Positions 4,844-60,615 of a stretch of DNA of 64,000 bases are shown in pieces. A program made the position numbers and the translations under genes. The DNA comes from Haliotis rufescens (lineage: Eukaryota). The notes below the pieces were generated by a model that saw only the letters and a list, made by a program, of their open reading frames with translations, searched no databases and was not told the DNA's origin. The DNA lies in NCBI RefSeq assembly GCF_023055435.1, contig NW_025963835.1, positions 32,302,001 to 32,366,000 of the forward strand, read 5' to 3'. Every line of letters starts with the position of its first letter. Positions within the stretch are counted from its first letter, which is position 1.

Positions 4844-5090
4844 NNNNNNNNNNNNNNNNNNNNNNNNNNNNNNNNNNNNNNNNNNNNNNNNNNNNNNNNN
4901 NNNNNNNNNNNNNNNNNNNNNNNNNNNNNNNNNNNNNNNNNNNNNNNNNNNNNNNNNNNNNNNNNNNNNNNNNNNNNNNNNNNNNNNNNNNNNNNNNNNN
5001 NNNNNNNNNNNNNNNNNNNNNNNNNNNNNNNNNNNNNNNNNNNNNNNNNNNNNNNNNNNNNNNNNNNNNNNNNNNNNNNNNNNNNNNNNN
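4844..5090. other. Assembly gap (N run)
   Basis: N characters. Confidence 1.
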
Positions 5091-19189: not shown

Positions 19190-22100
19190 TATGACTGTGT
19201 GCTAAGGAAAACGTACATTGGTGCACATTATCGTGTGTAAGTGTGAGTATAGTAACTGCATATACTGGTCTACAAAATTATGTATAATTGTGTGCATAAT
19301 AAAAGATTTATTGATAGACATAATCATGTATAATTGTGTGTATATCAAATTCATATATTAGTGCACGTAATTATGTATAATTGTGTGTATAGTAACTGCA
19401 TATATTGGTACACATAATCATGTATACTTCTGTGTATATCAAATGCATATATTTGTACACATAAGCATGTTTCAGTGTGTGTATATCAAATGCATATATT
19501 GGAAAACACATCAGCATGTATGAGTGTATGTATATAAATGCATATATTGGCACACATAACCATGTATGAGTGTATGTATATGAATGCATATATTGGAAAA
19601 CACATAAGCATGTATGAGCGTGTGTACATCAAATGCATATATTGGCACACATAAGCATGTAGGAGTGTGTGTATATGAATGCATATATTGAATGCATATA
19701 TTGGCACACATAACCATGTATGAGTGTATGTATATGAATGCATATATTGGAAAACACATAAGCATGTATGAGCGTGTGTACATCAAATGCATATACTGGC
19801 ACACATAAGCATGTATAAGTGTATGTATATAAATGCATATATTGGCACACATAAGCATGTATGAGTGTATGTATATGAATGCATATACTGGCATTCATAA
19901 GCATGTTTGAGTGTATGTATATGAATGCGTATTTTGGCACACATAAGCATGTATGAGTGTATGTATATAAATGCATATATTGGCACACATAAGCATGTAT
20001 GAGTGTATGTATATGAATGCATATACTGGCACTCATAAGCACGTATGAGTGTGTGTTTATGAATGCATATACTGGCACACATAACCATGTATGAGTGTAT
20101 GTATATGAATGCATATATTGGCACACATAAGCATGTATGAGTGTATGTATATAAATGCATATATTGGCACACATAAGCATGTATAAGTGTATGTATATGA
20201 ATGCATATACTGGCACTCATAAGCACGTATGAGTGTGTGTTTATGAATGCATATATTGGCACACATAAGCATGTATGAGTGTATGTATATAAATGCATAT
20301 ATTGGCACACATAAGCATGTATGAGTGTATGTATATGAATGCATATATTGGCACTCATAAGCATGTTTGAGTGTATGTATATGAATGCATATATTGGCAC
20401 ACATAAGCATGTATGAGTGTATGTATATAAATGCATATATTGGCACACATAAGCACGTGTGAGTGTGTGTTTATGAATGCATATACTGGCACACATAAGC
20501 ATGTATGAGTGTATGTTTATGAATGCATATATTGGCACACATAAGCATGTATGAGTGTATATATATGAATGCATATATTGGTACACATAAGCATGTATGA
20601 GTGTATGTATATGAATGCATATACTGGCACACATAACCATGTATGAGTGTATATATATGAATGCATATATTGGCACACATAACCATGTATGAGTGTATGT
20701 ATATGAATGCATATATTGGCACACATAAGCATGTATGAGTGTATGTTTATGAATGCATATACTGGCACTCATAAGCATGTTTGAGTGTATGTATATGAAT
20801 GCATATATTGGCACACATAACCATGTATGAGTGTATATATATGAATGCATATACTGGCACTCATAAGCATGTATGAGTGTATATATATGAATGCATATAT
20901 TGGCACACATAACCATGTATGAGTGTATATATATGAATGCATATATTGGCACACATAACCATGTATGAGTGTATGTATATGAATGCATATGTTGGCACAC
21001 AGAAGCATGTATGTGTGTATGTTTATGAATGCATATATTGGCACACATAACCATGTATGAGTGTATATATATGAATGCATATATTGGTACACATAAGCAT
21101 GTATGAGTGTATGTATATGAATGCATATACTGGCACAAATAACCATGTATGAGTGTATATATATGAATGCATATATTGGCACACATAACCATGTATGAGT
21201 GTATGTATATGAATGCATATATTGGCACACATAAGCATGTATGAGTGTATGTTTATGAATGCATATACTGGCACTCATAAGCATGTTTGAGTGTATGTAT
21301 ATGAATGCATATATTGGCACACATAACCATGTATGAGTGTATATATATGAATGCATATACTGGCACTCATAAGCATGTATGAGTGTATATATATGAATGC
21401 ATATATTGGCACACATAACCATGTATGAGTGTATATATATGAATGCATATATTGGCACACATAACCATGTATGAGTGTATGTATATGAATGCATATGTTG
21501 GCACACAGAAGCATGTATGAGTGTATGTTTATGAATGCATATACTGGCACTCATAAGCATGTTTGAGTGTATGTATATGAATGCATATATTGGCACACAT
21601 AAGCATGTGTGAGTGTGTGTTTATGAATGCATATACTGGCACACATAAGCATGTATGAGTGTATGTATATGAATGCATATACTGGCACACATAAGCATGT
21701 ATGAGTGTATGTATATGAATGCATATATTGGCACACATAAGCATGTATGAGTGTATGTTTATGAATGCATATACTGGCACTCATAAGCATGTTTGAGTGT
21801 ATGTATATGAATGCATATATTGGCACACATAAGCATGTATGAGTGTATGTATATGAATGCATATAATGCATGTGTAAGTATGTGTATATCGATGCATATA
21901 TCGGCACACATAATCATGTATGAGTGTGTGTATACGAATGCGTATATTGGCACACATAAGCATGTTTGAGTGTATGTATATAAATGCATATACTGGCACA
22001 CATAAGCATGTATGAGTATGTGTATATATAAATGCATATATTGGCACACATAAGCATGTATGAGTGTGTGTATATAAATGCATATATTGGCACACATAAG

Positions 22101-24687
22101 CATGTTTGAGTGTGTTTATATGAATGCATATACTGGCACACATAAGCATCTATGAGTGTGTTTATATGAATGCATATATTGGCACACATAAGCATGTATG
22201 AGTGTGTGTATATAAATGCATATATTGGCACACATAGGCATGTATGAGTGTTTATATGAATGCATATATTGGCACATATAAGCATGTATGAGTGTGTGTA
22301 TATGAATGCATATATTGGCACACATAACCATGTATGAGTGTGTGTATATAAATGCATATATAGGCACACAAAAGCATGTGTAAGTATGTGTATATGAATG
22401 CATATATTGGCACACATAATCATGTATGAATGTGTGTGTATGTATATGAATGCATATATTGGCATACATAAGCACGTATGAGTGTTTATATGAATGCATA
22501 TATTAGCACACTTAAGCATGTATGAGTGTATGTATATATATGCATTTATTGCCAAACATAAGCATGTATGAGTGTATTTATATGAATGCATATATTGGCA
22601 CACATAAGCATGTTTGAGTGTGTTTATATGAATGCATATATTGGCACACATTAGCACGTATGAGTGTTCATATGAATGCATATATATTGGCACACATAGG
22701 CATGTTTGACTGTGTTTATATGAATGCATATATTCGCACACATAAGCATGTTTGAGTGTGTTTATATGAATGCATATATTGGCACATATAAGCATGTATG
22801 AGTGTGTGTATATCACATGCATATATTGGCACACATAAGCATATATGAGTGTGTGTATATAAATGCATATATTGGCACACATAAGCATATATGAGTGTTT
22901 ATATGAATGCATTCATTGGCACACATAACCATGTATGAGTGTGTGTATATCAAATACATATATTGGCACACATAAGCACGTATGAGTGTTTATATGAATG
23001 CATATATTGGCACACATAAGCATGTTTGAGTGTGTTTATATGAATGCATATATTGGCACACATTTGCACGTATGAGTGTTCATATGAATGCATATATATT
23101 GGCACACATAGGCATGTTTGACTGTGTTTATATGAATGCATATATTCGCACACATAAGCATGTTTGAGTGTGTTTATATGAATGCATATATTGGCACATA
23201 TAAGCATGTATGAGTGTGTGTATATCACATGCATATATTGGCACACATAAGCATATATGAGTGTGTGTATATAAATGCATATATTGGCACACATAAGCAT
23301 ATATGAGTGTTTATATGAATGCATTCATTGGCACACATAACCATGTATGAGTGTGTGTATATCAAATACATATATAGGCACACATAAGCACGTATGAGTG
23401 TTTATATGAATACATATATTGGCACACATAAGCATATATGAGTGTTTCTATGAATGCATATATTGTCACACATAGGCATGTATGAGTGTGTTTATATGAA
23501 TGCATATATTGGCACACATAAGCATATATGAGTGTTTCTATGAATGCATATATTGTCACACATAGGCATGTATGAGTGTGTTTATATGAATGCATTTATT
23601 GGCACACATAGGCATGTATGAGTGTTTATATGAGTGCATATATTGGCACACATAGGCATGTATGAGTGTTTATATGAATGCATATATTGGCACACATAAG
23701 CACGTATGAGTGTTGATATAAATGCATATATTGTCACACATAAGCATGTATGAGTGTTTATATAAATGCATATATTGGCACACATAAGCACGTATGAGTG
23801 TTTATATGAATGCATATATTGTCACACATAAGCATGTATGAGTGTTTATATAAATGCATATATTGGCACACATGAGCATGTATGAGTGTTTATATAAATG
23901 CATATATTGGCACACATAAGCACGTATGAGTATTTATATGAATGCATATATTGTCACACATAAGCATGTATGAGTGTTTATATAAATGCATATATTGGCA
24001 CACATAAGCATGTATGAGTGTTTATATAAATGCATATATTGGCACACATAAGCATGTATGAGTGTTTATATGAATGCATATATTGGCACACATAAGCATG
24101 TATGAGTGTTTATATAAATGCATATATTGTCACACATAAGCATGTATGAGTGTTTATATAAATGCATATATTGTCACACATAAGCATGTATGAGTGTTTA
24201 TATAAATGCATATATTGGCACACATAAGCATGTATGAGTGTGTGTATATCAAATGCATATATTGGCACACATAAGCATGTATGAGTGTTTATATAAATGC
24301 ATATATTGGCACACATAAGCACGTATGAGTGTTTATATGAATGCATATATTGTCACACATAAGCATGTATGAGTGTTTATATAAATGCATATATTGTCAC
24401 ACATAAGCATGTATGAGTGTTTATATAAATGCATATATTGTCACACATAAGCATGTATGAGTGTTTATATAAATGCATATATTGGCACACATAAGCATGT
24501 ATGAGTGTGTGTATATCAAATGCATATATTGGCACACATAAGCATGTATGAGTGTTTATATAAATGCATATATTGGCACACATAAGCATGTATGAGTGTT
24601 TATATGAATGCATATATTGGCACACATAAGCATGTATGAGTGTTTATATGAATGCATATATTGGCACACATAAGCATGTATGAGTGT
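19190..24687. repeat. Large 44-46-bp minisatellite array (ATGCATATATTGGCACACATAAGCATGTATGAGTGT[ATGT/TT]ATATRA)n, about 120 copies
   Basis: Direct periodicity; 46-bp units on the left, 44-bp units on the right, diverged left edge. Confidence 0.98.
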
Positions 24688-24774
24688 AAAGGCGACAGTC
24701 ACATCACTGATACATGTTGAGATATGCTATCATACATATTCATTCTCTTTGGGACGGGTCTTATTGCAAAAAAA

Positions 24775-26160
24775 TACAACATTTCCTCCTTGGAGTTTGT
24801 ATTGAATACGTATATATACAACATTTCCTCCCAGTATCATGCATTGCATATGTATGAATACAACATTTTCTTCTGGGAGATTGTATTGAATACGTATACA
24901 TATAACATTTCCTCCCAGTAGAATGCATTGCATATGTATGAATACAACATTTCCTCCTTGGAGATTGTATTGCATATGTATAAATACAACATTTCTTCTG
25001 GGAGATTGTATTGAATACGTATATATACAACATTTCCTTCCAGTAGAATGCATTGCATATGTGTGAATACAGCCTTTTCTTCTGGGAGATTGTCTTGCAT
25101 ACGTATATATACAACGTTTCTTCCCAGTAGAATGCATTGCATATGTATGAATACAGCATTTTCTTCTGGGAGATTGTTTTGCATACGTATATATACAACA
25201 TTTCCTCCTTGGAGATTGTATAGCATATGTATGAATACAACATATCCTCCCAGTAGAATGAATTGCGTATGTATGAATACGACATTTCCTCCTTGGAGAT
25301 TGTATTGAATACGTATATATACAACATTTCCTCCTTGGAGATTGTCTTGCATACGTATATATACAACATTTCCTCCCAGTTGAATGCATTACATATGTAT
25401 GAATACAACATTTCCTCCTTGGAGATTGTCTTGCATACGTATATATACAACATTTCCTCCTTGGAGATTGTTTTGCATACGTATATATACAACATTTCCT
25501 CCCAGAAGAATGCATTGCATATGTATGAATACAACATTTCCTCCTTGGAGATTGTATTGAATACGTATATATACAACATTTCCTCCTTGGAGATTGTCTT
25601 GCATACGTATATATACAACATTTCCTCCTTGGAGATTGTCTTGCTTACGTATATATACAACATTTCCTCCTTGGAGATTGTAGTGGATATGTATGAATAC
25701 AACATTTCCTCCCAGTAGAATGCATTACATATGTATGAATACAACATTTCCTCCTTGGAGATTGTCTTGCATACGTATATATACAACATTTCCTCCCAGT
25801 TGAATGCATTACATATGTATGAATACAACATTTCCTCCTTGGAGATTGTCTTGCATACGTATATATACAACATTTCCTCCTTGGAGATTGTATTGCATAC
25901 GTATATATACAACATTTCCTCCTTGGAGATTGTATTGCTTACGTATATATACAACATTTCCTCCCAGTTGAATGCATTACATATGTATGAATACAACATT
26001 TCCTCCTTGGAGATTGTCTTGCATACATATATATACAACATATCCTCCAAGTAGAATGCATTGCGTATGTATGAATACAACATTTCCATCTTTGAGATTG
26101 TCTTGCATACGTATACATACAACATTTCCTCCTATTAGATTGTATTGCATATGTATGTAT
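24775..26160. repeat. 42-bp minisatellite with two interspersed unit types
   Basis: TACAACATTTCCTCC followed by TTGGAGATTGTCTTGCATACGTATATA or CAGTAGAATGCATTGCATATGTATGAA; 14-aa periodicity in the ORF track. Confidence 0.97.
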
Positions 26161-51110: not shown

Positions 51111-52934
51111 CACTCGACGTGGCCATCACCCCATTATCCAGACACATTGGGCACTTGTTCAACAGACTTTAAAAGAAGCCATTATTGAATAAAACAGAGC
51201 ATCTGTTGAAAACGGCCTTGAACACCTATCTCGAAAACATATTGCTATTATGTCTGTAGTTTAACACTTAAACAGACACTTTCATAATTATTTTGCTCAA
51301 TTTCCTTGATTGCAATAATATTTATGTCGCGTACTAATGACGTGGAACGTGTTACTTGAGGCAGAGAAGCGAAATGAGGTAAAAATATATGGACCCTGTA
51401 CTCCCAGACAACTCAGCACCCCCACCTTAGGATGCTACGCCATGAATTGCTCTTGAATGACGTGTCATAAATGTTGTTGTTTTTATTTTTCCACAAGCCT
51501 TTACAAATGTGTTTACCTTTGCATCGTTTCCACAATTTCAGACTAGACTCCCGGAATGCTAAATCAAAAACCCCACATTTTATTACCCCATTATAAATTA
51601 AAATATATCTCTACCTTTCTCTCTTTAATAAATCAGGGGCATTTGGCATCTTGAGTACATGATTTTATCTGGCAATCTTGAATTGCATGAGAGCATGTTT
51701 TTAAATATAAAATCACAGACACGACGGTAAGCTGTCAGCTGACTAGCGATATGCACAATTGTAGATCGTCAATACCAACAAGAACATTCGGAGCGGCCAG
51801 TCTAGAACCGCAGCGCGTAACGCAGTATAACAGTGCATGGAGTCTGGCAACGCCGCATGAGGCCGCAGGGGGACACATGTAGAGGGAGATTAAAATGAAA
51901 TGGAAATGACAACGATTGTGCCCATGTCCTGTGTTAATCTCCGTCCTCGAGTCTTCATTCGTGTCAGATGGCGTTATGTCCGCTTGGATAGGCATCGCTG
52001 TCTGACCATGGGTCATCGCACAGGATTACAACGCTTGATATCTGGTCATCGGATGACAGACACAAGAGAGAGGGCTCAGGTTCCCCGGGGGTCAGCATAA
52101 CCCCTCGGGCGGAAGTAGAGACCAAAATAAACAATACGTGATTATCTCCCCTTGAATACCCACCCGGACAAGCATGGTGGCTGTATTGAAGGGGGTGGTA
52201 TATAGGTATATTGAAGATTTACAGGCACAATTAGTAAGTTCGTGTGTGGCAAGACGAGGACAATGTGTTGTTGTTGATGGAGAACAATGCATTATAGAGA
52301 GATCTTGAACAGCTGAAACATATTTTCCAGGATCAAGATGTGTTTTGTCTTCAAGGCCATATCACCCATGTTGCATAAACACAAATATACACGAGGTTGC
52401 ATGTCGTCTCTAAGTAGGAATATACAAAGTAAATATTTAGCAAAAGTACAATTTTTTCTTCATCTTGAAAATGTACACAGTCGGTTAGGTAGGATACTAT
52501 TATCACATCATTAAATTTATATCTCACATATTTATATAAAAACACATTTCAGACACTTGATTTTTACGAAGCTTTTAATAGAGATGAATACAAGGAGACA
52601 CGTGCTTATATACTAGAGTGAGTGAGTCAGATGGGTTTAATGCTACTTCTAAAGGTAGATATGTTATATTAGTAATGTACAGTTTCCGCTTAATGTCGGA
52701 TTAATCCCAGAAGTAATGCGGAACTTCAACGATTACCACTTTGATATAACCGCCAACACGGCCAAGGTGCTGATAAACCGACTTTCATAATCACCAAGAA
52801 TCTGAAATTTTAACACACTATCATAGGATGCTTGTATGCTTAAGGGACGCAACTCTGCGTAGCGAGTTCCAACACTTTTGAAACCTCCTGTTGTATAAAT
52901 TGTTTGAGAGACATTACCTAGAAGCTGACGGATG

Positions 52935-53095
52935 ACAAAGTAGATACAATTTATGGATAACAACTTCTTTAATACTGTAAAGGCGACGTTTCGGCAAAGA
53001 TCCTCATACCGTTGTCATGCATCCTGCTTGGATCCATACCGAAACGTCGCCTTTACAGTATTAAAGTTGTTATCCATAAATTGTGTCTACTTTGT
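52935..53095. mobile_element. Inverted pair of Penelope-like element ends with a minimal hammerhead-ribozyme motif
   Basis: About 58-bp arms ACAAAGTAGATACAATTTATGGATAACAAC...GGCGACGTTTCGG / CCGAAACGTCGCC...TTGTGTCTACTTTGT; core TGACAA-C-GGTAT..ATACC-GAAAC-GTC. Confidence 0.7.
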
Positions 53096-53156
53096 TATAT
53101 ACTAGACGGGATTGTACACTAGATGTGGTTTTAAAAAGATGTTGGCTTATTCTAGA

Positions 53157-53572
53157 TGTGTGGGTGTGGTCTTCATCTGCTTTTGACAATATAATAGTAA
53201 CATCGCGGCACGAGTCATTGTCTTCCCACATTGTACCCTTGAAGGCAATTGAACCCGGGTGTTCGGCGTGACTGGACTGGATTGGATTGGATTGTTGTTT
53301 CACGCCGCACTCAGCAATATTCCAGCTATATAACGGCGGTCTGTAAATAATCGAGTCTGGACCAGACAATCCAATGATTAATATCATGAGCATCGATCCA
53401 CGCAATTGGGATCGATGACATGCATCAACCAAGTCAGCGAGCCTGACCACCCGATCCCGTTAGTCGCCTTTTACGACAAGCATAGTCACCTTTAAAGCAA
53501 GCATGGGTTGCTGAAGACCTATTCTACCCCGGAATCTTCACGGGTCTCGTGACGAGCGGATGCTCTCCACCT
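53157..53572 (-). mobile_element. Old SINE family A copy split by a family B insertion
   Basis: CACATTGTACCC...GAACCCGGGTGTTCGGCGTGAC | CGTGACGAGCGGATGCT. Confidence 0.75.
53273..53547 (-). mobile_element. Full-length SINE family B (no tRNA head; LINE-derived bipartite type)
   Basis: Minus strand CCCGTGAAGATTCCGGGGTAGAATAGG...TGTCGTAAAAGGCGACTAACGGGATCGG...GGAATATTGCTGAGTGCGGCGTGAAAC-(CAATC)n; flanking CGTGAC duplication at 53267-53272 and 53548-53553. Confidence 0.9.
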
Positions 53573-53959: not shown

Positions 53960-54340
53960 GGACACAGCCGTCTGAGGCGCCGCAATATGCGGAGAAGAAA
54001 CCTTAGATTAGAATCCCAGATTCGCCCCAATTATGTTTCTAGGTTTGTCAGCACCATACCTGTGCTCGTGGGTTTCACCTAATTGGTAAATGTCTGAGAC
54101 CTGCAACACTTCGGGCCTTTTTCCTACATAACTGGACGGGTGAGTGAGTGAGTATGGTTTTACGCCGCTTTTAGCAATATTCCAGTAATATCATGGCGGG
54201 GGCCACCAGTAATGGGCTTCACACATTGTACCCATGTCGGGAAGCGAACGCTTTAACCACTAGGCTACCCGACCGCCTCGATATAACTGGAATACTGTTT
54301 AAAGCAGTGAATAAACTCGCACAGTCAGTCACTCACTCAC
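53960..54340 (+). mobile_element. SINE family C copy interrupted by a family A insertion
   Basis: ACCATACCTGTGCTCGTGGGTTTCAC before the insertion; GATATAACTGGAATACTGTTTAAAGCAGTG..(TCAC)n after it. Confidence 0.75.
54139..54279 (-). mobile_element. SINE family A nested in family C (internal deletion at the B-box)
   Basis: (GTGA)n-TTTTACGCCGCTTTTAGCAATATTCCAG...TTTAACCACTAGGCTACCCGACCGCC. Confidence 0.9.
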
Positions 54341-54388
54341 ACATTTGAATTCAGTAAACTCTGAATTTCGTTACACCGCTTCATCGTT

Positions 54389-54506
54389 GGTAGGGTGGCC
54401 TTATTGTCAAAGCGTTCGCTTGTCACCCGGAATCCCCTGGTTCGATACCCCACAAGGCTCCAGTACGTGACGTCCCTCATTGGTGTCCCCGTCGTGATGT
54501 TGCTGA
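54389..54506 (+). mobile_element. SINE family A, degenerate 5' part
   Basis: GTGGCCTTATTGTCAAAGCGTTCGCTTGTCAC...GGTTCGATACCCCAC...GGTGTCCCCGTCGTGATGTTGCTG. Confidence 0.75.
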
Positions 54507-54511
54507 CACGG

Positions 54512-55555
54512 ACACCTGTGTTACACGACCTCCATCTGTCACTGGTCAAGCAGAGAATTCAGTTCAAGATTAATGATGACTTCTCACCAGGATACCCCCT
54601 AGAGGTCATTCAAATGTATCAAACTTCACGAGCATTACGTAGCGACTCGTCATACCAGACATACCAGACTCGACGTACCAGACATACCAGACTCGTCATA
54701 CCAGGCATATCAGACTCATCGTACCAGCCATACCAGAATCGTCATACCAGACATACCAGACTCGTCGTACCAGCCATACCAGACTCGTCGTACCAGACCT
54801 ACCAGACTCGTCGTACCAGACCTACCAAAATCGTCATACCAGACATACCAAAATCGTCATACCAGACATACCAAAATCGTCATACCAGACATACCAGAAT
54901 CGTCGTACCAGACATACCAAAATCGTCATACCAGACTCCTCATACCAGACCTACCAGACTCGTCATACCAGACCTACCAGACTCGTCGTACCAGACATAC
55001 CAGACTCGTCATACCAGACATACCAGACTCCTCGTACCAGACATACCAGACTCGTCGTACCAGACCTACCAGACTCCTCATACCAGACATACCAGACTCG
55101 TCGTACCAGACCTACCAGACTCGTCATACCAGACCTACCAGACTCGTCATACCAGACATACCAGACTCGTCATACCAGACATACCAGGCTCCTCGTACCA
55201 GACATACCAGACTCGCCGTACCAGACATACCAGACTCGTCGTACCAGACATACCAGACTCGTCGTACCAGACATACCAGACTCCTCGTACCAGACATACC
55301 AGACTCGCCGTACCAGACATACCAAACTCGTCGTACCAGACATCGTCGTACAAGACATACCAGACTCGTCGTACCAGACACCACAACATTCGCCTCGAAT
55401 GGCTGCAAAATTAGAGATGCGGCGTTAAGTAATGTTCACTCACTCACTCTCTGTTGCCAGTCCCAAGCTCCATACCACTCGATACCACTCGAACAGAAAC
55501 AAGTAGACTCTCTTCAATCCTTACGACGTTAACTCAAAACCTTCTCTTTTCACAA
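54512..55555 (+). mobile_element. Decayed 3' end of L2/CR1-clade LINE ORF2, interrupted by a minisatellite and a SINE tail
   Basis: TPVLHDLHLSLVKQRIQFKI...YQTSRALRS..LVVP [array] SVASPKL..SIPLEQKQVDSLQSLRR*LKTF matches the L2/CR1 C-terminus (HITPxLxxLHWLPVxxRIxFK...LRS..LLVVP...SVAAPKLWNSLP...FKxxLKTxLF). Confidence 0.8.
54644..55380. repeat. 23-bp minisatellite (GACTCGTCRTACCAGACATACCA)n
   Basis: Direct periodicity, 13+10 substructure. Confidence 0.96.
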
Positions 55556-59595: not shown

Positions 59596-59734
59596 TGTTA
59601 TGTGTTTACATCCGAAATGTGTTAGGATAAAACACACTTAAAGTGTATTCCGTTTAGAATTTAAACCATTCCTAAACATATTTAGATCGAAACATGAGTT
59701 GTATGTGTTTTCATTCTAAACACAGTTTTCACAG

Positions 59735-60615
59735 TGTGGGTCCGAATTCCAGAACTCCCATGATTGTTTCTCGTTTTGTTTCTCGTTTTGTTTCTCGGAT
59801 TGTTTCTCGGGTTGTTTCTCGTTTTGTTTCTCGGGTTGTTTCTCGGATTGTTTCTCGGGTTGTTTCTCGGGTTGTTTCTCGGGTTGTTTCTCGGGTTGTT
59901 TCTCGGGTTGTTTCTCGGGTTGTTTCTCGTTTTGTTTCTCGGGTTGTTTCTCGTTTTGTTTCTCGGGTTTCTCGGGTTGTTTCTCGGATTGTTTCTCGGG
60001 TTGTTTCTCGGGTTGTTTCTCGGATTGTTTCTCGGGTTGTTTCTCGGGTTGTTTCTCGGGTTGTTTCTCGGGTTGTTTCTCGGATTGTTTCTCGGGTTGT
60101 TTCTCGGATTGTTTCTCGGGTTGTTTCTCGGGTTGTTTCTCGGATTGTTTCTCGGGTTGTTTCTCGGGTTGTTTCTCGGGTTGTTTCTCGGATTGTTTCT
60201 CGGGTTGTTTCTCGGGTTGTTTCTCGGGTTGTTTCTCGGGTTGTTTCTCGGATTGTTTCTCGGATTGTTTCTCGGGTTGTTTCTCGTTTTGTTTCTTGGG
60301 TTGTTTCTCGTTTTGTTTCTCGGATTGTTTCTCGGATTGTTTCTCGGACTGTTTCTCGGATTGTTTCTCGGATTGTTTCTCGGATTGTTTCTCGGATTGT
60401 TTCTCGGGTTGTTTCTCGGATTGTTTCTCGGATTGTTTCTCGGGTTGTTTCTCGGATTGTTTCTCGGATTGTTTCTCGGATGGTTTCGTAGGTTTCATCA
60501 ACGTGGCAAATGTCTAACACCTGCATCACGTCTGACTCCTCACTCCGACACGCCGTGATATGACCGGAATACTGTTCAAAACGGCGTTAAACCCCCACTC
60601 ACTCACTCACTCACT
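59735..60615 (+). mobile_element. SINE family C copy containing an expanded 12-bp array
   Basis: B-box-like GTGGGTCCGAATTCC before the array; CGTAGGTTTCA...GGAATACTGTTCAAAACGGCGTTAAACCC(CACT)n after it. Confidence 0.75.
59762..60480. repeat. 12-bp minisatellite (TTGTTTCTCGGR)n, about 60 copies
   Basis: Direct periodicity. Confidence 0.98.

What the first reader, a model, noticed from the sequence alone, without database searches (positions are those of the whole stretch)
52935..53095. Palindromic Penelope-like mini-element whose two arms reconstruct a variant minimal hammerhead ribozyme
Seen: inverted arms of about 58 bp. The minus arm reads GC-ATGACAA-C-GGTA-tgaggatctt-TGCC-GAAAC-GTC-GC, and the plus arm reads GC-TTG-[deletion]-gatcc-ATACC-GAAAC-GTC-GC. 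Combined they give GC-TTGACAA-C-GGTAT(loop)ATACC-GAAAC-GTC^GC. Known: Penelope-like elements carry type I minimal hammerheads with a palindromic ACGT helix III that act as dimers, and often leave inverted pLTR ends. The core differs from CUGANGA by a compensatory U3-A8 in place of C3-G8 and a one-base insertion after A9. Inference: a tiny non-autonomous ribozyme-bearing element; this copy is probably inactive.
Basis: partly seen in the sequence, partly recalled or inferred. Interest (0 to 1): 0.7.

Follow-up and report, generated by a model that had tools for sequence, protein, structure and literature searches.

The report
Back-to-back Penelope retrotransposon stub
This 200-base mirror-image sequence is a decayed insertion of two back-to-back ends of a common Penelope-type jumping gene that carries an already described hammerhead-ribozyme motif, likely built on landing when both cut DNA strands copied the short front end of the element's RNA, so it is probably a dead by-product and not a self-copying mini-element.

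Summary
In detail: both arms read as described, though they are about 78 bp, not 58. The insert also has a one-sided 34-bp tail and a 9-bp target duplication (52889-53101). It belongs to an abundant family whose longer copies run into an RT plus GIY-YIG ORF of Penelope/Poseidon type. The hammerhead reading is supported by covariation across sister families. U3-A8 and the extra base after A9 are both published for Penelope hammerheads (PMC4209133). A separate non-autonomous mini-element is not supported: 110 one-tailed inverted copies show 101 different breakpoint pairs, and spans run from 81 to 1455 bp. Arm 5' ends pile up 40-46 bases before the predicted cut, 30 bases behind a TATA box, in two subfamilies. 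The stubs are therefore likely twin-primed run-off copies of mostly uncut RNA. This copy is probably inactive. Cleavage is untested, and an excess of ends at the cut site was weak and did not replicate. The scan has reported the same reading in other genomes. Verdict: new member of a known kind, modest interest.

The parts
52889..52897 (.). Left copy of the candidate 9-bp target-site duplication
   Evidence: one mismatch to the right copy. Family-wide, 83 of 118 inverted pairs have a duplication of 9 bp or more against 14 of 400 mismatched flank pairs
52898..53021 (-). Tailed arm: PLE pLTR from about -37 to +87 relative to the predicted cut
   Evidence: Alignment to real copy L083 (row L001)
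52898..52931 (-). One-sided 34-bp tail; holds the decayed start of the PLE ORF (ATG at 52914-52912)
   Evidence: In L117, L119, L121, L122, L123, L124 the same tail runs on into the ORF, translated MPIKQF in L119
52983..53020 (-). Minimal type I hammerhead motif, damaged (A at core position 3, one stem II mismatch); predicted cut between 52985 and 52984
   Evidence: cut site inferred from hammerhead numbering, untested
53022..53095 (+). Tail-less arm: pLTR from about -40 to +52, with a 13-nt deletion between 53030 and 53031 that removes most of the core and the 5' strand of stem II
   Evidence: compared with L083 and L146
53041..53050 (+). Surviving 3' half of the second hammerhead motif (GAAAC-GTC-GC)
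53093..53101 (.). Right copy of the candidate target-site duplication (first 3 bases shared with the arm end)

Best explanation
The palindrome is one decayed insertion of two head-to-head pLTR ends of an RT- and endonuclease-encoding Penelope/Poseidon-type element, likely assembled at the target when each cut strand primed its own cDNA (one from +87, one from about +52) and both likely ran off the RNA's predicted start about 42 bases before the hammerhead's predicted cut site. Shown: family membership, parent ORF, target duplications, one-sided tail, variable centre, pile-up of 5' ends, TATA box at -72. Inferred: the two priming events, the transcription start, joining of the two cDNA ends, use of mostly uncut RNA, and inactivity of this copy. 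The hammerhead is a passenger here: it is copied because it lies between the RT start sites and the RNA 5' end.
For: [quoted passage not shown] Of 118 distinct directly joined inverted pairs, 110 have exactly one tailed arm, 6 none, 2 both. In 62 of the 110 the tail-less arm reaches at least 4 nt further 5' than the tailed arm, so each arm holds sequence the other lacks and neither can be a fold-back copy of the other. There are 101 different breakpoint pairs among the 110. Arms chosen only on +17..+46: older subfamily, 81 of 94 end at or before -46, rate 0.118 per base at -40..-46 against 0.016 and 0.019 on either side; younger subfamily, same bins, 51 of 74, rate 0.062 against 0.0115 and 0.0125, p 1e-5 and 2e-4. 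TATATA begins at -72 or -73 in 6 of the 9 motif-bearing copies printed, covering three families. In vitro, an anole Poseidon protein cuts and extends both strands, starts RT at two internal sites that bracket the tail and uses uncut RNA (PMC11167929).
Against: The transcription start is predicted from TATA and initiator-like motifs only; no RNA 5' end was seen. The pile-up is broad (-31..-39 also raised: 0.046 and 0.047 per base), so RT stalling or trimming could contribute. The -40..-46 bin was chosen after seeing the first sample. No excess of a cap-derived G beside the ends (8 of 46). 13 of 94 and 23 of 74 arms extend beyond -46 and need a longer template. Breakpoints are BLAST ends and approximate, and that pool mixes differently selected loci. 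No intact full pLTR-ORF-pLTR copy was found. 30 of 118 pairs showed no duplication of 8 bp or more.
Confidence: 0.7

Rival explanations
1. Same Penelope origin, but both arms are ordinary random 5' truncations from the 3' pLTR, with the pile-up caused by RT stalling on RNA structure or by end-joining preferences and not by the RNA's start.
For: PLE copies are described as highly 5'-truncated with an inverted truncated partner (PMC8557442). Arms of hundreds to 2600 bases exist. The pile-up is spread over -31..-46 and lies just past the stem II hairpin.
Against: The end rate falls five- to six-fold right after -46 in both subfamilies, and that edge sits 30 bases behind a TATA box kept at the same distance in three families.
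Confidence: 0.2
2. A self-propagating non-autonomous palindromic mini-element (retrozyme- or MITE-like) that is transcribed, perhaps cut or circularised by its hammerheads, and moved in trans as a unit.
For: The 180-220 bp class is the commonest span among 118 pairs (the pool is enriched for it). Seven breakpoint pairs recur two or three times. Non-autonomous PLE derivatives exist (bioRxiv 10.64898/2026.07.22.740005).
Against: 101 distinct breakpoint pairs in 110 copies; continuous sizes; variable 8-17 bp duplications; no terminal symmetry because the tail is one-sided. Short copies start downstream of the TATA box. A transcript of the palindrome would bury both motifs in one long hairpin.
Confidence: 0.06
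3. The inversion arises by fold-back self-priming of one strand (self-priming was proposed for rotifer Penelope palindromes in PMC3846280).
For: In 39 of 110 pairs the tailed arm contains the whole tail-less arm, which a fold-back could give. Short overlaps at the junction are common.
Against: In 62 of 110 pairs each arm has sequence the other lacks, for example L031 (+38..+87 against -563..+53) and L082.
Confidence: 0.04

Closest known systems
EN+ Penelope-like element insertions with an inverted 5'-truncated pLTR, one-sided 30-40 bp tail and TSD (PMC3846280, 11 passages; PMC8557442, passages)
   Same: Head-to-head inverted pLTRs, tail on one arm only, variable TSD, pLTR overlapping the ORF start, TATATATA followed by an initiator-like motif
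   Different: Here both arms are so short that no ORF body is left. The passages read do not describe a pile-up of arm ends at the predicted start and favour self-priming, which fits fewer than half of the pairs here
Minimal hammerheads (min-HHR) of metazoan PLEs, including the U3-A8 variant of Schistosoma mansoni (PMC4209133, parts 1-2 of 4 and supplement passages)
   Same: Core with one extra base between 9 and 10.1, G10.1-C11.1, palindromic 15.2-16.2 with no loop 3, U3-A8 covariation, opposite-strand pairs 100-700 bp apart
   Different: Stem I is only 2 bp (4-5 bp in S. mansoni, 2 bp in D. virilis). U3-A8 is the majority form in this genome (82 of the first 100 hits). The extra base is C and can pair with G12 in the predicted monomer fold
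Poseidon from Anolis carolinensis, PAc (PMC11167929, parts 1-2 of 4)
   Same: C-terminal EN, two RT start sites bracketing the tail inside the ORF start region, both strands extended, uncut RNA as main template
   Different: PAc has a C3-G8 core and its ORF starts at stem II; here the ATG lies about 70 bases after the cut site, inside the tail
Animal non-LTR retrozymes (bioRxiv 10.64898/2026.07.22.740005, part 1 of 5)
   Same: Non-coding, hammerhead-bearing, PLE-derived
   Different: Retrozymes are head-to-tail tandems with an HHR per unit; this is a head-to-head pair with a copy-specific junction

Membership tests
EN+ PLE, Penelope/Poseidon clade (parent family) | Single ORF with RT and C-terminal GIY-YIG endonuclease linked to this pLTR | tested here: met
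   L087/L111 RT PF00078 E 5e-10, followed by VVYKVDCNCGQSYVGET. Pfam gave no hit for the EN part, so the EN is identified by motif
EN+ PLE, Penelope/Poseidon clade (parent family) | DKG and GxKF/Y motifs; two cysteines inside GIY-YIG (CCHH); no CX2-5CxxC linker | tested here: met
   ADKGK and SKGLKY in L111, CNC between VVY and YVG, no cysteine linker; definitions from PMC8557442
EN+ PLE, Penelope/Poseidon clade (parent family) | Placement in the clade by RT phylogeny | not tested
   No reference PLE proteins were fetched; one search gave only weak RT and telomerase matches
EN+ PLE insertion | pLTR overlapping the ORF start, with optional 30-40 bp tail on one end | tested here: met
   3' ends cluster at +87 and +46..+56; 110 of 118 pairs one-tailed
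EN+ PLE insertion | Variable-length target-site duplication | tested here: met
   83 of 118 with 9-17 bp against 14 of 400 controls; window copy 9 bp with one mismatch
PLE min-HHR (family motif) | Core NUGANNA-H and GAAA with a Watson-Crick 3-8 pair | tested here: met
   6346 hits against 861 control; first 100 tallied by eye: 82 U-A, 8 C-G, 6 U-G, 4 C-A; pair UA 10, CG 7, UG 2, other 1 in 20 rows
PLE min-HHR (family motif) | Helices I and II supported by compensatory change | tested here: met
   30 double changes against 12.2 shuffled, 0 of 500; stem I GC 9 / AU 6; three stem II pairs. Rows are hand-picked, related, and come from only a handful of families
PLE min-HHR (family motif) | Palindromic 15.1-16.1 (ACGU) allowing dimer helix III | tested here: inconclusive
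   Present in all 20 rows, but fixed by the search pattern; a dimer fold of a real copy did not recover the hammerhead dimer
PLE min-HHR (family motif) | Self-cleavage after GUC | not testable with these tools
   Indirect trace only: ends exactly at +1 in 7 of 427 genome-wide and 4 of 94, but 1 of 74 in the younger subfamily
PLE min-HHR (this copy) | Intact core in at least one arm | tested here: not met
   A at position 3 in one arm, 13-nt deletion in the other
Non-autonomous mini-element / MITE | Fixed unit with shared internal junction and symmetric termini across independent insertions | tested here: not met
   101 breakpoint pairs in 110 copies; one-sided tail
Non-LTR retrozyme | Head-to-tail tandem units, each with a complete HHR | tested here: not met
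   The window copy is head-to-head; short tandem arrays of the motif exist elsewhere
Non-LTR retrozyme | Abundant circular RNA | not testable with these tools
   Only small-RNA raw reads and contigs were available

The most novel reading that the evidence does not exclude
The thousands of stubs are a fossil map of the element's RNA 5' ends: most arms run off the transcription start at about -42, and a few per cent stop exactly at the hammerhead cut. That would be a genomic trace of in vivo cleavage by a U3-A8 minimal hammerhead and of twin priming as the source of Penelope's inverted ends.
Probability: 0.3. Interest if true: 0.6.

Novelty: new member of a known kind. Interest (0 to 1): 0.3.

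Why it matters
For annotation: such palindromes are Penelope stubs, not MITEs, miRNA hairpins or new ribozyme elements. For mechanism: how Penelope elements make inverted ends and one-sided tails is only partly worked out. The arm-end counts give testable numbers (RT starts at +87 and about +52, RNA start near -42, mostly uncut template) that fit the 2024 in vitro work. The U3-A8 family is a ready substrate for a cleavage assay. The scan has already noted the same pattern in other genomes, so this window adds a case, not a discovery.

Tried and rejected
Rfam: no hammerhead family at E<=10; MIR821 and MIR6217 hits are generic long-hairpin matches far below gathering scores. One search used L043:1-1000 as a supposed PLE RT query; it was a nested RNase H-bearing LINE. 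Pfam missed the EN domain; the weak ADPrib_exo_Tox hit (E 0.066, below cut-off) was rejected as noise. PDB sequence search gave only weak RT matches. The Atlas search gave no answer. An intact full-length pLTR-ORF-pLTR copy was not found among L111 and L136-L139. Sequencing runs: no RNA holder listed on record. Small-RNA run X21 gave 0 reads on the window copy, and X20 gave 0 on L111. Excess of ends at the predicted cut: 7 genuine ends at +1 of 427 anchors against 3.0 expected, p 0.035; controls gave 3 genuine ends of 12 hits at +2 and 1 of 1 at -1; 4 of 94; 1 of 74. Left inconclusive. Cap-derived G beside the pile-up: 8 of 46, not in excess; ends called -41 begin with a templated G and cannot be judged. 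A splice-acceptor reading of the AG at -42/-41 was considered: the four ends at -40 share no upstream exon. MFE folding of a real copy gave stem II extended by C9.1-G12 and no hammerhead as monomer or dimer, as expected for a 2-bp stem I. Lunse et al. 2017 is not held and was seen only as a citation in PMC6765202; it may already report activity of such variants. One supplementary file of PMC4209133 could not be searched.

Full report
Observation. The inverted repeat is longer than stated: 52932-52966 / 53064-53098 (35 nt, 94%) plus 52962-53003 / 53030-53071 (42 nt, 88%), about 78 bp per arm. As RNA the stretch folds into one hairpin of -97.5 kcal/mol, z -15.95. Rfam has no hammerhead hit here. 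Positions below are relative to the predicted cut: C17 = -1, next base = +1.

Family. A search of the own genome (1.33 Gb, 615 contigs) gave 1906 candidates; 40 were scored, and the other full-length matches are 77-87% identical. One exact 25-mer has 690 hits and two exact 30-mers have 552 and 795, all with 0 control hits. The copies show that the window element runs from 52898 to about 53095: a tailed arm (-37..+87, minus strand), a tail-less arm (-40..+52, plus strand, 13-nt deletion) and a 9-bp duplication with one mismatch at 52889-52897 and 53093-53101.

Parent. Longer copies continue upstream into a reading frame ending in a GIY-YIG-type domain. L111 is the same architecture at 3.2 kb: a 600-bp tailed arm, a 2.6-kb tail-less arm with RT (PF00078, E 5e-10) and EN, and a 14-bp duplication. 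In 6 of 8 loci examined the tail runs on into the ORF start, so the tail of the window copy is the decayed first codons of that ORF. [quoted passage not shown] No intact pLTR-ORF-pLTR copy was found.

Ribozyme motif. A pattern for YTGANRA..GAAACGTC has 6346 hits against 861 for its control. Of the first 100, by eye, 82 are U3-A8, 8 C3-G8, 6 U-G and 4 C-A. Twenty hand-picked 34-nt motifs from several families give 86.5% paired cells against 77.8 shuffled and 30 double changes against 12.2 (0 of 500 each). Covariation is at the 3-8 pair, one stem I pair (GC 9, AU 6) and three stem II pairs. The rows are related and the core was fixed by the pattern, so this supports the fold but is not a probability. 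The variant is published: PMC4209133 (parts 1-2 of 4 read; supplement passages) reports U3-A8 in about 1,300 S. mansoni motifs, the conserved extra base between 9 and 10.1, palindromic 15.2-16.2, opposite-strand pairs 100-700 bp apart, and low activity even as dimers. A search for 'U3-A8' with 'hammerhead' found only that paper. The window copy has A at position 3 in one arm and has lost most of the core in the other. The arms face opposite ways and would pair with each other. It is probably inactive (inference).

Is it a mini-element family? No. Among 118 distinct, directly joined inverted pairs pooled from the fetched loci, spans run from 81 to 1455 bp; 110 have one tail, 6 none, 2 both; the 110 show 101 different breakpoint pairs; 83 of 118 have a duplication of 9-17 bp against 14 of 400 mismatched flank pairs. 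Each insert has its own centre. In 62 of the 110 the tail-less arm reaches further 5' than the tailed arm, in 39 the reverse, in 9 they are within 3 nt. In the 62, each arm holds sequence the other lacks, which excludes a single fold-back and points to two priming events. PMC11167929 (parts 1-2 of 4) shows in vitro that an anole Poseidon protein cuts and extends both strands, starts at two internal sites that bracket the tail, and mainly uses uncut RNA. The 3' ends here cluster at +87 and +46..+56.

Why about 200 bp? Arms were sampled on +17..+46 only. Older subfamily (the window's): 96 arms from the first 100 of 552 hits, 94 after dropping 2 duplicated loci; 81 end at or before -46; end rate 20/170 = 0.118 per base at -40..-46, 61/3861 = 0.016 downstream and 9/468 = 0.019 upstream. 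That bin was chosen after seeing the data. Younger subfamily, same bins: 77 arms from 70 loci of 795 hits, 74 after dropping 3 interrupted by LINE tails; 51 end at or before -46; 12/195 = 0.062 against 0.0115 and 0.0125 (p 1e-5, 2e-4). TATATA begins at -72 or -73 in 6 of the 9 motif-bearing copies printed, from three families. That is 30 bases before the A at -42 of an initiator-like TCAGTC (consensus and spacing recalled; a TATA-plus-initiator layout is described for a rotifer pLTR in PMC3846280). I infer that the RNA starts near -42 and that RT, starting at +87 or +52 near the RNA's 5' end, runs off after about 130 or 95 bases; two such cDNAs give the 200-bp palindrome. The window's arms begin at -37 and -40. 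Against this: the rate is also raised at -31..-39, no RNA end was seen, no cap-derived G is in excess (8 of 46), and 13 of 94 and 23 of 74 arms are longer and need read-through RNA. In D. virilis the start lies further upstream, 46 bp before a 75-bp intron (PMC2377424, passages).

Is the ribozyme used? Most arms pass through the predicted cut, so the template is mostly uncut. Ends exactly at +1: 7 of 427 anchors, all genuine, against 3.0 expected (p 0.035); 3 genuine of 12 hits at +2 and 1 at -1; 4 of 94; only 1 of 74. This is suggestive and not replicated. Small-RNA runs laid on L111 gave 545 (X21), 72 (X22) and 0 (X20) reads, all antisense to the ORF, the main species 30 nt long, none over the hammerhead. 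That looks like piRNA silencing (inference; the runs may be from a related species).

Comparison and novelty. It works like, and its parent is, an endonuclease-bearing PLE with a min-HHR. It fails the tests for a MITE or retrozyme (PMC8557442; PMC3846280; bioRxiv 10.64898/2026.07.22.740005 part 1 of 5; PMC8969392 passages; PMC6765202 passages). The pile-up at a predicted start was not in the passages read or the listings of searches; I did not read these papers whole and cannot say it is unpublished. My run-off reading was noted before one search showed eight earlier notes of this scan with the same reading in other genomes; those are unchecked AI notes and add no independent support.

Verdict. 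Real, ordinary in kind: new member of a known kind, interest 0.3. Best explanation 0.7; random truncation 0.2; self-propagating mini-element 0.06; fold-back 0.04.

Noticed in passing
L070, L073, L075, L076, L220; L240, L241, L244, L247, L249, L154, L049, L050, L056: A young RNase H-bearing LINE with an (AAGT)n tail, and a second LINE with a (CAA)n tail, insert at about -50 in PLE pLTRs, between the TATA box and the hammerhead, in the same orientation, in four PLE families. 5 of 39 LINE loci with a tail have a core 9-17 nt behind it. In 7 of 15 loci checked, PLE upstream sequence and a duplicated site flank the LINE 5' end, so these are insertions into PLE DNA. A hotspot, not strict targeting; one search listed no paper on it; noted earlier by the scan (e1-9315527).
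   Followed up: partly
L112 (C1:64527783-64528763), L181/L193 (C1:8198534-8199264), L209: Head-to-tail arrays of the hammerhead segment with periods of about 75, 72 and 50 bp; most L112 units read GAAACATC in place of GAAACGTC.
   Followed up: partly
L183, L184, L185; L151, L153, L070: Sister PLE families share the 34-nt hammerhead geometry with C3-G8 or U3-A8 cores; one forms the same short head-to-head palindromes with centres near -38..-44.
   Followed up: partly
window 52727 and 53075-53250: One contig in run X16 joins 53075-53250 (reversed) to 52727-52882, and X15 has a matching piece (table 8): a possible inversion or inverted duplication with one breakpoint in the right arm in another individual or species.
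   Followed up: no
L111:3858-5014: Antisense small RNAs of about 30 nt over the PLE ORF in runs X21 and X22, with a dominant species at 4968-4997.
   Followed up: no
L137:629-945, L138:572-913: The same short palindrome sits directly in front of the ORF start, i.e. as the 5' end of longer insertions.
   Followed up: partly
window 53209-53540 and 54140-54421: Other interspersed repeats beside the element (direct and inverted matches D1, D2, I1, I4), also seen around many fetched loci; not part of the insertion.
   Followed up: no
window 19500-26130, 54365-55530, 59676-60586: Long minisatellite arrays that give spurious open frames.
   Followed up: no
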